Of a DNA stretch of 64,000 nucleotides, positions 49,852 to 56,540 are shown piece after piece (the stretch's first letter is position 1; each line of letters starts with the position of its first letter). Below the pieces are notes generated by a model, which ran no database searches, had not been told where the DNA came from, and saw only the letters and a program-made list of their open reading frames with translations. Position numbers and translations under genes: made by a program. This DNA is from Flaccisagitta enflata. Its lineage: Eukaryota. Location of the stretch: the NCBI GenBank assembly GCA_965153355.1, contig OZ231126.1, positions 40,920,001-40,984,000 on the forward strand, in the 5' to 3' direction.

Positions 49852-52800
49852 ATGGCAATTACTTTGCGTCCTTCCTCTATCACCCTCGTGGCCATCCTCG
49901 TCACTCTTTCTTCCTCCTTCTCCTCTTCCTCTTCCGCCTCCACGTCGTTGACGGGGCTCCTGGGAGGCGCTCAATCCTTTGCAGCCGCCGTCGACGCGAT
50001 TAGCCAGAAAGCGGAAGTGACGTCGACTGGAATCGACGAGGGCTTGGATGCAGCCGAAGAAGCGAAAGTAGTCAAAGCCTTGGCCGAGGCTTTGGATAAA
50101 GCGTTTTCGGCTTATTTTGAACTGGAGAAGATCATATCTGCCAAGGTAAAATTGGGGGTGAGGGAAAAAATATGAAAAGAAGAGCGAGAGGAACAACTGA
50201 CGCGGGGTCAAAATATCGTTGCGGACGGGTGGGCAGGGGCATCCAACCCCCATCCACACCCCAACCCACCCCCAACACTCAAACATACACAAAAAGTATT
50301 GAAAACGCTAGTTTTCCCACTTTTCAACTTGATCACCATGACGGACCAACGCGACGGACCAACAGACCAACAGACGAACAAAGCCTCTTATAGAGTTGCG
50401 TGTCCGCAACTAAAGAGAGAGAGAAAGAGAGAGAGAGAGAGAGAGAGAGAGAGAGAGAGAGAGAGAGAGAGAGAGAGAGAGAGAGAGAGAGAGAGAGAGA
50501 GAGAGAGAGAGAGAGAGAGAGAATTGATTGAATGGTTAAAAGAATAAACCAACGATATTCATTTTTGCTCTAGATGAATGTCTTGAAAGATGAAGCCCCT
50601 GAGGTTGCCGGAAGTTCCCCGAAATACTTTGACAAAGTGAAGCAGTTCCTCAAATCTGTTGTTGGCAACGACAAGAACAAAGTCGTGCCACTCAAAGATC
50701 TGGCCGCGGTAAGCACAGTTTTGCAAGCTTGTTGTTGCAATATCGCACGCACGCACAATATAGTGTTTTTGTTACGTTTTTGTTTCTTTTTTTTTTTTTT
50801 TTTTTTTGTTTGTTTGAATTTTACAAGTTACATTCGGTACATCAACATTTGTGCCCCAATTTTTTTAAATAACCTAGGGTGCATCTAGTAAACTGGCGGA
50901 AGTTGCAGTTGGCTTGGTTATGAATGTTGGACAACATTACTACTCAACCCAATCTAAGTAAAGGACAAGAGCCTTTGGAGCTCTTAATGGTGCTAAATCC
51001 GGACCCATCACAACTATCCTTACAATTTCTAAATAAATCTTCTTGTACAATGACAAGTTGTAGGCAACAATGTCGCGACTTGAATCGAGACTCTCGAGCA
51101 GACACACTCTTCTTCAATCAGGGAGCATCGAAACTGGCAAAAGAAGCAGTCGATTTGGTTGAGTTCGATAATGCATTGGAGGCTGTCATGTCCCGAGCTG
51201 ACGCCGTCTTCTTTATTCTGCATGACATCGAAATTCGCGTGAATCCAAATCTGGAGGAGTACAAGAAACAGCTAGCTGCAGCGTATAAGAACCAAGGTAC
51301 ACAGTTTTATTTGTGATGTTAGTCACAGCTTCAGTCCCAAGCAGCAGGTTGTAAGTCATCTGGTTGGAGTTACAGATTCGGTTAAAACGGCCTCGGATTC
51401 ATCAACATTGGCATTACCATTTTACCATCTAGGTCAAAAGTATATTGACAAATGAGAATATATGAAGACAGAATTTTGCCCAGTGAAATACACCTTTAAG
51501 TCTTGGTAGTACCTTTGGGGTATCCAACTGCTGCATCTAAAATTTCATTTTGGTAAGCATAGGACGTGAAATCTGCCAGGGGAAAATGAAGCGCTTCACC
51601 CCAATTTTGCATCAATAATGGAATAATTATCTATCCACAAATGACATCATTGCTCAAGTTATCACTAGATACACTTGATATGTATATCTGTTCCATATTT
51701 TACGCTTTAAATCGCCTTTTGATAAACAATTCTCACGGAAAATGGCAAGAAAATGAAGATTTTCAGTGAAATTTTGTTGACATTTTTTTCTATTTTCTCA
51801 GGTCGAAATTATAAGAAAGCCACACCCAGAAGAATTTTGCATTTTCAAAAACATAGTTCTCTTTAAAAACGATTTGGGAAGATAACTATGTTCTTTGTTT
51901 TTTCATTTTTTGATTTTCTATGCAAACTTATAATTTCGACCAACCCCTTGTCAGTGACAAAAAAGAAATTTGTAGAAATTTTCAGTAAATCTTCTTCAGT
52001 AATTTATGCTAAATCTGAGTCTCTTGTTAAATGGATGCAAATTTTGCTTTCAAATATCATGCAAGTCTTATCTTAATCACTTTTATTCACTTGTTTTTCT
52101 GTTTTCACTCATGTATATGTTCTATTTTGACCCGTTTTGATACCCTAAATGTTGGCTTCGTGGGCACGCTGTCATAAAGTAAACACATGAAAAAAAGGCC
52201 TAGTTGGAAAAAAGTCGAATTACGTATTTCGACTATTTGAAACGTAGGGGAGAAATTGGGTTTTCCATTTTTGATTTGGGGAATTTGAGAAAGTTGAGCT
52301 ATTTCTGCCTGGGATGATACATTTTTTTATATTCACAGCTGAGAAAGAACCAATTTTTCTCTTTCAAATGGCGCCAACCAGAAGTCTCTATGATCATTAA
52401 TTTTGGCGTTATGAATTTTTGAATCTTTTTTTATTTTTCGCATTTTCGCGAAGATCGATATTTTTCATTGATCCCAAATTTTTCCACTAATGTAACAATA
52501 GAGAATAGTCAAGATGTTACGCAAATTGACTCCAACTTTTATGACGCTAGCTTTAGCATTTTACTCTGCTTGAGAGAGAGAGAGAGAGAGAGAGAGAGAG
52601 AGAGAGAGAGAGAGAGAGAGAGAGAGAGAGAGAGAGAGAGAGAGAGAGAGAGAGAGAGAGAGAGAGAGAGAGAGAGAGAGAGAGAGAGAGAGAGAGACAG
52701 AGAGAGAGACAGAGAGAGAGACAGAGAGAGAGACAGAGAGAGAGACAGAGAGAGAGACAGAGAGAGAGAGAGACAGAGAGAGAGACAGAGAGAGACAGAG

Positions 52801-55800: not shown

Positions 55801-56540
55801 ATATGCAACGAAAAATCATACATTTTCTGAAGAAAATTCTCTTTTAGCACTTGACAGGGCCCCATGGAAAACTCTTAATTTGCATAGAAAATGACAAATT
55901 CAAAAAACTAGAAACATGGCCTTCTTCCAAAGACACGTAGGAAAGAAGCCATGTTCTTAGAAATGCAAAAAAGTTCGTTTGGAAGCAGATTAAGAGTTTT
56001 CCGTGGGACCCTCTTAAGAATTTTATCACTCAGTTTTCAGTAAAACGATTTCCTAGTCCATTTCTTTTCTCTACATACATTGTTGATTAAAGATATTTTT
56101 CCCACAAATGATGGTTGAAAAAGCGTATTGAAGCAGTTGTTGTTCCAAATCAGCACAAGAAAGAAATATTATAAATACAAACTTATCATGTAGTATGTTA
56201 ACTAAAGTGGCACGGAAATCGCGTGTTCAAAAGAAGCGTGTCTTATGGACATCCTCGTCTTACTTCATTGAACTATCGAAACTACCACTGAAAAATAAAA
56301 GGAAAAAAGAAAGAGAGGAGGAAATAGGCCGCATCTATTAAAACCGTTACAATTCCTCTTTTTTTCTTCTTTTTCTCTTTTCCCATTAGATCACCCTATT
56401 ACGGCCACGGCTTAAGTCACGGCATCCACCATCATTATGGCCATGCCCACTATCACTCCCATCTCGATCACATTATGGCCCACATTCATCCCGATCCCCA
56501 CGGCTATGGCCCTTTACACTACCACAGTAACTGGTGGTAG
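49852..56540 (+). CDS. Secreted 404-aa precursor of His/Gly-rich peptides (no recognised family)
   Basis: Eight phase-compatible GT-AG exons: 49852-50145, 50574-50708, 51122-51296, 53336-53446, 53791-53869, 54990-55136, 55419-55541, 56390-56540 (1215 nt, ATG to TAG with no internal stop). Hydrophobic N-terminus, RRRKR/WKR/RKAR/WKR sites and (GH)10. Confidence 0.8.
52573..52983. repeat. Compound (GA)n/(GAGACA)n/(CA)n microsatellite in intron 3
   Basis: Direct reading of the sequence. Confidence 0.95.
53888..54581. mobile_element. TA-flanked MITE with a nested family-A element (~54156-54354)
   Basis: TA|CACTTTTT..TAAGAAC ... GTTCTTATAAA..TAAGTG|TA, with repeated GTTCTTA motifs. Confidence 0.7.

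What the first reader, a model, noticed from the sequence alone, without database searches (positions are those of the whole stretch)
49852..56540. Unrecognised secreted polyprotein predicted to release three His/Gly/Trp-rich peptides
Seen: eight exons, largely invisible to the ORF track, splice in frame to 404 aa. After a signal-like N-terminus and a ~190-aa region come RRRKR|SYDHGYDSGWHIAHHLGFWQALADSNSASNHGDPVSKSHAIFWAINQNLGPRW|KR|DTESVTTSRVRKAR|SPGWHHGFHDGHADGFDIGYHQGAAHAAIRQAAMELNGLGHLPLFG(GH)10HVW|KR|SPYYGHGLSHGIHHHYGHAHYHSHLDHIMAHIHPDPHGYGPLHYHSNWW*. Each predicted peptide starts with Ser and ends with Trp, and the last has 15 His in 49 aa. Known: R-X-X-R and KR are furin/prohormone-convertase sites, and Gly/His-rich secreted proteins act in Zn/Cu-dependent hardening (Nereis jaw Nvjp-1), coacervation (squid beak His-rich proteins) or antimicrobial defence (histatins, clavanins, shepherins). 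Inference: a lineage-specific processed precursor of metal-binding biomaterial or defence peptides.
Basis: partly seen in the sequence, partly recalled or inferred. Interest (0 to 1): 0.88.

Follow-up and report, generated by a model that had tools for sequence, protein, structure and literature searches.

The report
Orphan secreted histidine-rich peptide precursor gene
This is a real, expressed gene of a marine animal that encodes a secreted protein from a previously undescribed family, apparently cut into three histidine-rich peptides that are almost unchanged between related species, and whose role is still unknown.

Summary
Eight GT..AG exons (49852-56540, +) splice in frame to 404 aa. RNA-derived contigs of one metatranscriptome run carry all four junctions that I could lay, exons 4 to 8. 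Four uninterrupted 386-399-aa ORFs from other organisms align end to end with the spliced protein at 76-80% identity, with no indel at any exon junction. So exons 1-3 and 4-8 are one gene.

The family is an orphan. There was no Pfam, PDB-sequence or fold match, and a profile search of 1.84 billion representatives found only the family itself.

All five sequences share the same layout:
- a hydrophobic signal-like start;
- an acidic helical N-domain;
- a hypervariable Ser/Thr linker ending in R-[RK]-K-R;
- peptides 1 and 2, 98% invariant;
- a Gly-His run that varies in length;
- a third peptide with 15 His in 49 residues.

The protein has no Cys. The peptides carry Gly-x-x-x ridges and change from about +3 to +11 at pH 5.5 to net negative at pH 7.4.

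Best reading: a convertase-processed precursor of pH- and metal-switchable, self-associating extracellular peptides. Cleavage, metal binding and biological role are inferred. The strong conservation and low read depth fit bulk biomaterial or defence peptides poorly.

The parts
49852..50145 (+). Exon 1: ATG in an A(-3)/G(+4) context, signal-like hydrophobic core (ITLVAILVTL) followed by a Ser-rich stretch, and the start of the helical N-domain
   Evidence: Genomic ORF fragment P0016 of a close relative matches residues 1-99 and then diverges.
50574..50708 (+). Exon 2: N-domain
   Evidence: Fragments P0014 and P0015 stop matching at residues 142/143, which is the exon end.
51122..51296 (+). Exon 3: the most conserved part of the N-domain (VMSRADAVFFILHDIEIRVNPNLEEYK)
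   Evidence: P0013 matches residues 144-201 exactly, 58 of 58.
53336..53446 (+). Exon 4: hypervariable Ser/Thr linker, RRRKR site, and the start of peptide 1 (small-residue ridge every fourth position)
   Evidence: An X1 contig covers 53334-53442 with 0 other letters and joins on to exon 5.
53791..53869 (+). Exon 5: middle of peptide 1
   Evidence: Joints 53446|53791 and 53869|54990, both GT..AG, in an X1 contig.
54990..55136 (+). Exon 6: end of peptide 1 (PRW), RWKR site, 14-aa spacer, RKAR site, and the start of peptide 2 with six Gly at i,i+4
   Evidence: Joint 55136|55419 in an X1 contig.
55419..55541 (+). Exon 7: rest of peptide 2, including the Gly-His run and most of the VW-KR site (the Arg codon is completed by the first base of exon 8)
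   Evidence: X1 contig record 5 joins it to exon 8.
55468..55527 (+). Coding hexanucleotide repeat (GGC CAT type) that encodes the Gly-His run. Its length differs between species, and by my reading by 6 nt in one RNA contig.
56390..56540 (+). Exon 8: peptide 3 (49 aa, 15 His, ends NWW) and the TAG stop
   Evidence: Covered by contigs of X1 and X2.
56541..56810 (+). 3' untranslated region
   Evidence: The X1 contig reaches 56803 and the X2 contig covers 56469-56810 with 1 other letter.

Best explanation
This is a single-copy (within the window), expressed, eight-exon gene of a marine animal. It encodes a 404-aa, cysteine-free secretory precursor of an orphan family.

Inferred steps:
1. The hydrophobic N-terminus directs the protein into the secretory pathway.
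2. Furin/prohormone-convertase-type enzymes cut at four conserved basic sites: R-[RK]-K-R, R-W-[KR]-R, R-K-A-R and W-K-R.
3. This releases an acidic helical N-domain (about 180 aa), a 14-aa spacer and three His/Gly/aromatic-rich peptides (53, 69 and 49 aa in the window).
4. Peptides 1 and 2 carry Gly/Ala-x-x-x ridges, as in Yae1-type GX3 helices, that would let helices pack tightly.
5. The 39 histidines of the C-terminal half make the products polycationic at the acid pH of secretory granules and near-neutral to anionic at seawater pH. They also make them good ligands for Zn, Cu or Ni.

The products therefore most likely act outside the cell as pH- and metal-switched, self-associating peptides.

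Shown: the gene structure, its expression as spliced RNA, its conservation pattern and its lack of known relatives. Inferred: secretion, cleavage, metal and pH behaviour, and the biological role.
For: Gene model and expression:
- The gene model is reproduced.
- Four spliced joints are present in RNA-library contigs of X1. An X2 contig covers the end of exon 8 and the 3'UTR. Both runs belong to one study.
- The spliced protein is colinear with four full-length ORFs, P0009-P0012, at 76-80% identity with no indel at exon junctions.
- Orthologue P0011 hits only the eight exons in the window.

Signal-like start: the best 11-residue Kyte-Doolittle mean is 1.76-3.23 within the first 40 residues in 5 of 5 sequences. 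No 19-residue window elsewhere exceeds 1.37.

Conservation by region, as invariant columns:
- signal 12%
- first N-domain part 13%
- second N-domain part 67%
- linker 0%
- peptide 1 98%
- spacer 71%
- peptide 2 before the GH run 98%
- VWKR 100%
- peptide 3 62%, with its last 30 residues nearly invariant

Charge at pH 5.5 against pH 7.4: +2.6/-2.5, +10.7/-3.1 and +9.3/-2.2 for peptides 1, 2 and 3.

GX3 ridges:
- Peptide 2 has six Gly in a row at i,i+4; 2 of 20000 shuffles reach this.
- Peptide 1 has a Gly/Ala/Ser run of eight; 26 of 20000 shuffles reach this.
- The same stretch gives the only hit of the profile search that covers the peptide part and lies outside the family: a bacterial protein whose matching repeats Pfam calls Yae1_N.
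Against: - No experiment or read shows cleavage, secretion or metal binding.
- No signal-peptide or cleavage-site predictor was available, so both calls are rule-based.
- The AlphaFold2 model is poor: mean pLDDT 43.5, with block means of 21-37 over the C-terminal half.
- Near-invariance of 97 of 98 peptide columns is unusual for self-assembling low-complexity material and fits a specific receptor or partner better.
- The spacer and much of the N-domain are conserved too, so conservation of the basic sites could be part of general constraint on an uncleaved protein.
- Contig depth is low (2.3-5.1), and a poly(A) run, of which about 6% was read, showed no exon reads.
- RNA support in the window's own species comes from one study.
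Confidence: 0.5

Rival explanations
1. Hormone- or neuropeptide-like signalling precursor. The same processing applies, but the conserved peptides, above all peptide 1 (a predicted helix-turn-helix with four Trp), act through specific receptors. The His-rich parts would tune storage or metal-gated activity.
For: - 97 of 98 columns of peptide 1 and of peptide 2 before the GH run are invariant across five sequences whose signal and linker regions have diverged to 0-46% identity.
- The basic sites and the aromatic C-termini (PRW, HVW, NWW) are conserved.
- RNA depth is low, and one poly(A) run gave no reads. This fits expression in a few cells.
- Helices are predicted at P0011 residues 206-228 and 235-257, at low confidence.
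Against: - The peptides are long (49-69 aa) and have no Cys.
- No Gly precedes any basic site, so there is no amidation signal.
- 15-18 His per peptide and a length-variable GH run are not usual for receptor ligands.
- The spacer and the N-domain are conserved as well, unlike typical neuropeptide spacers.
- No known neuropeptide family was matched.
Confidence: 0.22
2. An uncleaved secreted metal-binding protein. The basic clusters are surface or linker features, and the C-terminal half folds around Zn, Cu or Ni, or acts as a metal buffer or carrier. The helical N-domain is part of the mature protein.
For: - The region from residue 81 to the C-terminus is largely conserved, including the spacer between two of the sites (71% invariant) and N-domain part b (67%).
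- His spacings of 2, 4, 6 and 7 are the most frequent (5 to 7 pairs each) in peptide 3, with a predicted helix over HLDHIMAHI.
Against: - The first site is an invariant K-R, within R-[RK]-K-R, placed exactly between a 0%-invariant variable-length linker and an invariant Ser-Tyr-Asp-His-Gly start.
- Substitutions at the sites are only K to R and back, apart from Arg to Ser at the first residue of site 1 in P0012 (SRRKR), which leaves R-R-K-R intact.
- Three of the four sites fit R-x-[KR]-R or R-x-x-R.
Confidence: 0.15
3. Histidine-rich antimicrobial or antifungal peptides, as histatins, clavanins and shepherins work. They would be stored with an anionic pro-domain and be active at low pH or with Zn.
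For: - The N-domain is acidic (pI 4.96) and lies ahead of peptides that become strongly cationic at pH 5.5.
- His/Gly/aromatic composition.
- Multi-peptide precursor architecture.
Against: - The peptides are net negative at pH 7.4.
- Hydrophobic moments are weak; the best 18-residue windows reach 0.36-0.40 and lie over the basic sites.
- Near-invariance between species is the opposite of the usual pattern for immune effectors.
- No paralogues in the window and only four full-length family members among 5.8 billion clusters.
Confidence: 0.08

Closest known systems
Furin/prohormone-convertase-processed multi-peptide secretory precursors (neuropeptide, hormone and antimicrobial prepropeptides)
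   Same: Signal-like start, a pro-domain, several products bounded by conserved R-x-[KR]-R or K-R sites, and products better conserved than the linker.
   Different: The products are long (49-69 aa), Cys-free and His-rich, with no amidation Gly. The pro-domain is large, helical and itself 67% invariant in its second part. There is no sequence relation to any described precursor family.
Gly/His-rich structural proteins hardened by metal or pH: Nereis jaw protein Nvjp-1 and relatives such as Nai11527, squid beak His-rich proteins, suckerins
   Same: Secreted, rich in His, Gly and aromatic residues, with GH/GY low-complexity stretches of variable length and a pI near 6.2-6.7, which would give a pH switch between granule and seawater.
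   Different: - Nai11527 is reported as 29% Gly and 16% His, with FPKM of about 9700 (passages of PMC13120676). Here the whole protein has 39 Gly and 40 His in 404 aa, and RNA depth is low.
- Those proteins are not described as cut at basic sites (recalled).
- The non-repeat parts here are nearly invariant.
- No sequence match was found (that library carries no names, so absence of Nvjp-1 from the hits is only indirect).
Yae1/Lto1 deca-GX3 proteins (Pfam Yae1_N, PF09811)
   Same: - Consecutive Gly at every fourth position flanked by aromatic and acidic residues: GWHHGFHDGHADGFDIGYHQG, six Gly, reached by 2 of 20000 shuffles.
- hhalign to a Yae1_N-bearing bacterial protein gives 33% identity over 48 columns, probability 51%.
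- Lto1 also depends on a C-terminal Trp (title and abstract start of PMC4523923 and PMC10245660 in the listing, plus recall).
   Different: - Those are cytosolic adaptors of Fe-S protein assembly; this protein has a signal-like start.
- It has six to seven GX3 units, not ten.
- Pfam gives no Yae1_N hit on the exon-6 peptide or on three full-length orthologues, even at E up to 10.
- The resemblance is in the motif, not a shown relationship.
Spinalin, the Gly- and His-rich spine protein of Hydra nematocysts
   Same: A taxonomically restricted, secreted Gly/His-rich protein of a marine-type invertebrate lineage (passages of PMC2687796).
   Different: Spinalin has no described helical N-domain or set of basic cleavage sites (recalled). 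I held no spinalin sequence, so no comparison was run. The phylum of this window is unknown.
Profilaggrin and the His-Gly-rich domain 5 of high-molecular-weight kininogen
   Same: His-rich polyproteins or domains from which proteolysis releases His-rich units. Kininogen papers print HG repeats (listing). The filaggrin reviews appeared only in the listing.
   Different: These are vertebrate proteins with unrelated sequence and domain context, and profilaggrin is intracellular. The comparison rests on listings and recall only.

Membership tests
Convertase-processed secretory multi-peptide precursor (functional class) | N-terminal signal peptide and no other membrane segment | tested here: met
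   This is a heuristic test only. The best 11-residue Kyte-Doolittle mean is 1.76-3.23 within the first 40 residues in 5 of 5 sequences. The maximum 19-residue mean elsewhere is 1.09-1.37. No SignalP-type predictor was available.
Convertase-processed secretory multi-peptide precursor (functional class) | Conserved basic cleavage motifs at the product boundaries | tested here: met
   RRRKR/RRKKR/SRRKR, RWKR/RWRR, RKAR and WKR are present in 5 of 5 sequences. The first follows a linker with 0 of 9 invariant columns.
Convertase-processed secretory multi-peptide precursor (functional class) | Products actually released by cleavage | not testable with these tools
   This needs peptidomics or expression with and without convertase activity.
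Yae1_N / deca-GX3 (PF09811) | Match to the Pfam model at or above its cut-off | tested here: not met
   No Yae1_N row for P0003, P0011, P0009 or P0012 at E up to 10. By contrast P0017 scores 34 bits, E 2.4e-8.
Yae1_N / deca-GX3 (PF09811) | About ten consecutive G-x-x-x units | tested here: not met
   Six Gly (seven with Ala) in peptide 2 and five Gly/Ala in peptide 1. The periodicity itself is significant.
Nvjp-1-type Gly/His-rich jaw proteins | Gly about 29-36% and His about 16-27% over the protein | tested here: not met
   39 Gly and 40 His in 404 aa. The enrichment is confined to the C-terminal peptides. Reference values come from passages of PMC13120676 and from recall.
Nvjp-1-type Gly/His-rich jaw proteins | Detectable sequence similarity | tested here: inconclusive
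   The profile search of 1.84 billion representatives gave eight hits: P0011 itself, five exon-ORF fragments of the family, the bacterial GX3-repeat protein P0017 and a 2273-aa protein, P0018, that I did not read. The library carries no names, so I cannot show that Nvjp-1 was in it.
Cationic His-rich antimicrobial peptides (histatin/clavanin type) | Net positive charge and amphipathic helix at physiological pH | tested here: not met
   Charges at pH 7.4 are -2.5, -3.1 and -2.2. They are positive only at pH 5.5. The top hydrophobic moments, 0.36-0.40, lie over the basic sites.
Any Pfam-A family / any solved structure | Significant sequence or fold match | tested here: not met
   - Pfam: none for seven exon peptides and for the full-length orthologues.
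- PDB sequences: best E 0.057.
- Foldseek: 0 matches at E <= 0.001.
- VIA-align: best Z 8.7, generic helical bundles over model residues 19-175 only.

The most novel reading that the evidence does not exclude
The gene defines a new class of extracellular effector. It would be a precursor whose convertase products, two GX3 'glycine-ridge' helices released by excision of a short connecting spacer plus a His-rich tail peptide, reassemble into a non-covalent, cysteine-free, metal- or pH-gated complex. That complex would act as a specific ligand or as the nucleating unit of an extracellular assembly in one marine animal lineage. It would take the Yae1/Lto1 type of helix pairing outside the cell and explain why about 100 residues are frozen between species.
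Probability: 0.15. Interest if true: 0.8.

Novelty: new variant of a known kind. Interest (0 to 1): 0.6.

Why it matters
If the reading is right, this is an undescribed family of secreted peptides, built from His, Gly and aromatic residues without any disulfide, yet held almost invariant between species. Such a combination is rare. Low-complexity His-rich proteins usually drift, and strongly conserved secreted peptides usually rely on cysteines.

The predicted peptide termini, the sharp charge switch between pH 5.5 and 7.4, and the GX3 ridges make it directly testable. It could inform work on pH- and metal-triggered peptide assembly, or reveal a new signalling peptide.

It also shows that gene finders tuned to open reading frames miss such genes. 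In the protein collections I searched, the window's species and its relatives appear at this locus only as ORF fragments cut at exon ends.

Tried and rejected
Searches that found nothing or were not available:
- Exon 1 (P0001) against longer proteins: no hit.
- The window's own genome: none held.
- Cluster look-up for accessions and names: switched off.
- Two scans of metagenome contigs, with A1 and with P0010: 406 and 377 pattern matches, none confirmed. I therefore had no orthologue DNA and could make no dN/dS estimate.
- Protein atlas on whole P0011 and on residues 202-391: no usable hit.
- Rfam on the whole window: 0 matches.

Structure:
- The AlphaFold2 model has mean pLDDT 43.5.
- Foldseek and VIA-align gave only generic helical bundles, with Z up to 8.7. 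That is below what the tool's own note calls meaningful for helical models.
- Complex prediction of peptide 1 with peptide 2: no verdict, score 0.29 against a mark of 0.34. This is neither for nor against pairing.

Sequencing runs:
- X5 (second study): only 36-41-nt contigs on the GH repeat with 3 other letters each. I do not count it as holding the gene.
- X6 (poly(A) raw reads): all 946 laid reads only partly fit, nearly all of them on an intronic repeat around 54463-54595, and 937 of them are 90-95% alike. It says nothing about the gene beyond 'no exon reads in the 6% read'.
- I did not lay reads on exons 1-3, because introns 1 and 3 hold long GA/CA repeats of a kind the tool turns away.

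Literature:
- Motif strings of the peptides: 0 papers.
- GH-repeat strings: 4 unrelated papers.
- A keyword search for His-rich furin-processed marine precursors found only reviews and unrelated work.
- No supplements were opened.

Considered and dropped:
- Sp185/333-type immune genes and BRICHOS-type precursors. These are recalled architectures that do not fit, because there is no Cys and the exon structure differs.
- An NLS reading of the basic clusters, because all five N-termini are hydrophobic.
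Full report
1. THE OBSERVATION

Reading 49500-57000 and joining the eight proposed exons by coordinates gives 1215 nt, which is 404 codons plus TAG. Every intron begins GT and ends AG. The ATG at 49852 has A at -3 and G at +4.

- the basic sites;
- three products that start with Ser and end with Trp;
- G(GH)10H;
- 15 His in the last 49 residues.

2. IS IT A REAL GENE?

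Three independent lines say yes.

(a) RNA of the same organism
- Five RNA runs held 0.05-0.15 of the sampled words of 49700-56900.
- I laid four of the six listed runs on 53000-56960. I chose this stretch because introns 1 and 3 hold long GA/CA repeats of a kind the tool turns away.
- In run X1, two contigs carry GT..AG joints that, after the stated shifts, are 53446|53791, 53869|54990 and 55136|55419. One is 272 nt, with 0 other letters on its listed exon-4 piece. The other is 590 nt, with 5 other letters.
- The tool reports the exon 7 to exon 8 join with 19 letters 'between'. Those letters equal genome 55521-55539. The contig therefore joins 55541|56390 and, by my reading, carries 6 extra bases, one more His-Gly unit. 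This rests on one contig at depth 5.1, so it is tentative.
- The 590-nt contig runs on to 56803. An X2 contig covers 56469-56810 with one other letter, which gives a 3'UTR of about 270 nt.
- X1 and X2 belong to one study.
- X5 matched only the GH repeat. X6 matched little beyond an intronic repeat. Neither counts as support.

(b) Orthologues
- The exon-6 peptide (P0003), searched against longer proteins, found five proteins.
- Four of them are complete ORFs on contigs of 1430-3594 nt: P0009 (389 aa), P0010 (399 aa), P0011 (391 aa) and P0012 (386 aa).
- Aligned with the spliced window protein, they are 76-80% identical from first to last residue, with no indel at any of the seven exon junctions.
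- The window's gene has seven introns and these ORFs have none. I infer that they are transcript-derived.
- They settle the point that reads did not test: exons 1-3 and 4-8 are one coding sequence.

(c) Genomic fragments of relatives
- P0016, P0014, P0015, P0013 and P0008 are ORF calls through single exons. Their similarity ends at residues 98/99, 142/143, 143, 201 and about 313, which are the window's exon ends.
- tblastn of P0011 against the whole window hits the eight exons and nothing else, so there is no paralogue within 64 kb.

3. THE ORGANISM

- No genome is held for this window.
- The window is about 35-44% G+C.
- It is repeat-rich. There are 13 copies of one short element with inverted ends in 64 kb and a LINE-type reverse transcriptase ORF.
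- A neighbouring alanine aminotransferase exon is closer to human ALT2 (E 1e-25) than to the barley enzyme (E 1e-17).
- The RNA holders are labelled marine metatranscriptomes.
- I take it to be a marine animal of unknown phylum.

4. ANATOMY AND CONSERVATION

| Region | Window residues | Invariant columns |
|---|---|---|
| Signal-like start | 1-31 | 12% |
| N-domain, first part | 32-80 | 13% |
| N-domain, second part | 81-201 | 67% |
| Ser/Thr linker (its length differs between the sequences) | 202-210 | 0% |
| Site 1 (RRRKR/RRKKR/SRRKR) | 211-215 | 3 of 5 |
| Peptide 1 (53 aa) | 216-268 | 98% |
| Site 2 (K/R)R | 269-270 | 1 of 2 |
| Spacer (14 aa, ending RKAR) | 271-284 | 71% |
| Peptide 2 before the GH run | 285-329 | 98% |
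| Gly-His run (6 to 22 residues) | 330-351 | 23% |
| VWKR | 352-355 | 100% |
| Peptide 3 | 356-404 | 62% |

- Signal-like start: hydrophobicity is kept in 5 of 5 sequences, and no other hydrophobic segment exists.
- N-domain: the AlphaFold2 model of P0011 is helical over residues 25-189, with pLDDT block means of 38-86. Its pI in the window protein is 4.96.
- Peptide 3: a variable Gly/Tyr/His head and a nearly invariant 30-residue tail ending (N/H)WW.
- The protein has no Cys, 40 His, 39 Gly and 8 Trp.
- The peptides have pI 6.2-6.7. Their charges are +2.6, +10.7 and +9.3 at pH 5.5 and -2.5, -3.1 and -2.2 at pH 7.4.

- Peptide 2 starts with six Gly spaced exactly four apart. Only 2 of 20000 shuffles reach this, and no other spacing from 2 to 7 gives more than two.
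- Peptide 1 has an eight-long Gly/Ala/Ser series at the same spacing (26 of 20000 shuffles).
- Both share G-[YF]-D-x-G-[WY]-H.
- This stretch gives the only hit of the exhaustive profile search that covers the peptide part and lies outside the family. It is P0017, a bacterial leucine-rich-repeat protein (E 3.6e-5). Pfam assigns its matching repeats to Yae1_N.
- hhalign gives 33% identity over 48 columns at 51% probability.
- Pfam does not place the family itself in Yae1_N, even at E up to 10. The likeness is one of motif: helices with a glycine ridge that pack against each other.
- This pairing is described for Yae1-Lto1. I saw only the title and abstract start of PMC4523923.

6. WHAT IT IS NOT

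- There is no Pfam family for seven exon peptides or for the four full-length orthologues; two were scanned at E <= 0.01 and three at E <= 10.
- The best PDB sequence match has E 0.057.
- Foldseek gives no match at E <= 0.001.
- VIA-align gives Z up to 8.7, to spectrin-, syntaxin- and MIT-type bundles over the N-domain only. That is within the noise for helical models.
- The 5.8-billion-cluster search with the family profile returned only its four members.
- HMMER over 1.84 billion representatives returned eight proteins:
  - P0011 itself;
  - five exon-ORF fragments of the family;
  - P0017;
  - P0018, a 2273-aa protein that matched profile positions 80-149, in the N-domain, at E 1.1e-4. I did not read it.
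- The peptides' motif strings occur in none of the searched papers.

7. HOW IT MOST LIKELY WORKS

Shown: a spliced, expressed, conserved orphan gene.

Inferred:
1. The protein enters the secretory pathway.
2. It is cut at four basic sites. The strongest argument is site 1: an invariant K-R within R-[RK]-K-R, sitting exactly between a linker that shares no invariant column and a peptide that shares all but one. At the sites only K and R are exchanged, apart from an Arg to Ser change at the first residue of site 1 in P0012, which leaves R-R-K-R intact.
3. The products are three peptides whose histidines give a large charge switch between granule pH and seawater pH, and many imidazole ligands for Zn, Cu or Ni.
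4. Their GX3 ridges favour tight helix packing.

I therefore read the products as pH- and metal-switched, self-associating extracellular peptides (confidence 0.5).

8. RIVALS

- Signalling (0.22). The near-invariance of about 100 residues, in sequences whose neutral-looking parts have diverged to 0-46% identity, fits a ligand better than a bulk material. So does the low depth. Against it stand the size, the lack of Cys and of amidation signals, and the His load.
- An uncleaved metal-binding protein (0.15). This would explain the conserved spacer and N-domain, but not the sharp boundary at site 1.
- Antimicrobial peptides (0.08). This fits the anionic pro-domain and the acid-pH charge. It does not fit the conservation, the negative charge at pH 7.4, or the weak amphipathicity.
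- A test of whether peptides 1 and 2 pair gave no verdict.

9. COMPARISON WITH THE KNOWN

- It works like a convertase-processed multi-peptide precursor.
- Its composition resembles the Gly/His-rich hardening proteins. Nai11527 is reported at 29% Gly, 16% His and FPKM about 9700 (passages of PMC13120676). Spinalin is described as a taxon-restricted Gly/His-rich protein (passages of PMC2687796).
- It fails their compositional and expression profile, and it shows no sequence relation to anything named.
- What I say about histatins, clavanins, shepherins, squid beak proteins and kininogen domain 5 is recalled.

10. VERDICT

'Biomaterial or defence' is open, and the conservation pattern weakens it. 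I rate it a new variant of a known kind, with interest 0.6.

Noticed in passing
window 54170-54360, 50200-50410, 53100-53260, 56930-57100 and nine other places: A short element with inverted ends (AGTCGCGGAC ... GTCCGCGACT) and an inner GACA/GACC repeat occurs 13 times in 64 kb; 0 were expected in 100 shuffles. Two copies lie in introns 1 and 5 of the gene and one lies just downstream. It looks like a miniature inverted-repeat transposon.
   Followed up: partly
window 58739-59407 and 61634-61996 (-): Exons of an alanine aminotransferase gene lie downstream on the other strand. The last exon matches human ALT2 (3ihj) at E 1e-25 and barley AlaAT at 1e-17. Another exon matches Pfam Aminotran_1_2.
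   Followed up: partly
window 62290-63999 (-): An open frame of 569 aa running off the window end carries a reverse transcriptase domain (RVT_1, E 1.7e-30). It is a LINE-type retroelement.
   Followed up: partly
window 44126-45538 (-): A 470-aa open frame upstream of the gene, rich in Ser/Thr and Glu/Lys. It has no Pfam match, and I did not check whether it is a real exon.
   Followed up: no
window 39509-39841 (-): An ORF with a weak NHL-repeat match (E 0.0031, below the Pfam cut-off). It may be an exon of an NHL-repeat gene.
   Followed up: no
window 55468-55527: The coding Gly-His repeat differs in length between the five species (6 to 22 residues). One RNA contig of the window's own species appears to carry 6 extra bases (depth 5.1), suggesting length polymorphism of a coding microsatellite.
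   Followed up: partly
window 50414-50522 and 52572-52985: Long (AG)n and (GA)n/(GAGAGACA)n/(AC)n arrays fill parts of introns 1 and 3. Similar arrays recur across the window.
   Followed up: no
window 55485-55517 (read laying, run X1): One X1 contig (depth 5.13) matches the GH-coding repeat and then 'goes back 33' with 21 unrelated letters between. It probably comes from another transcript with a similar His-Gly coding repeat.
   Followed up: no
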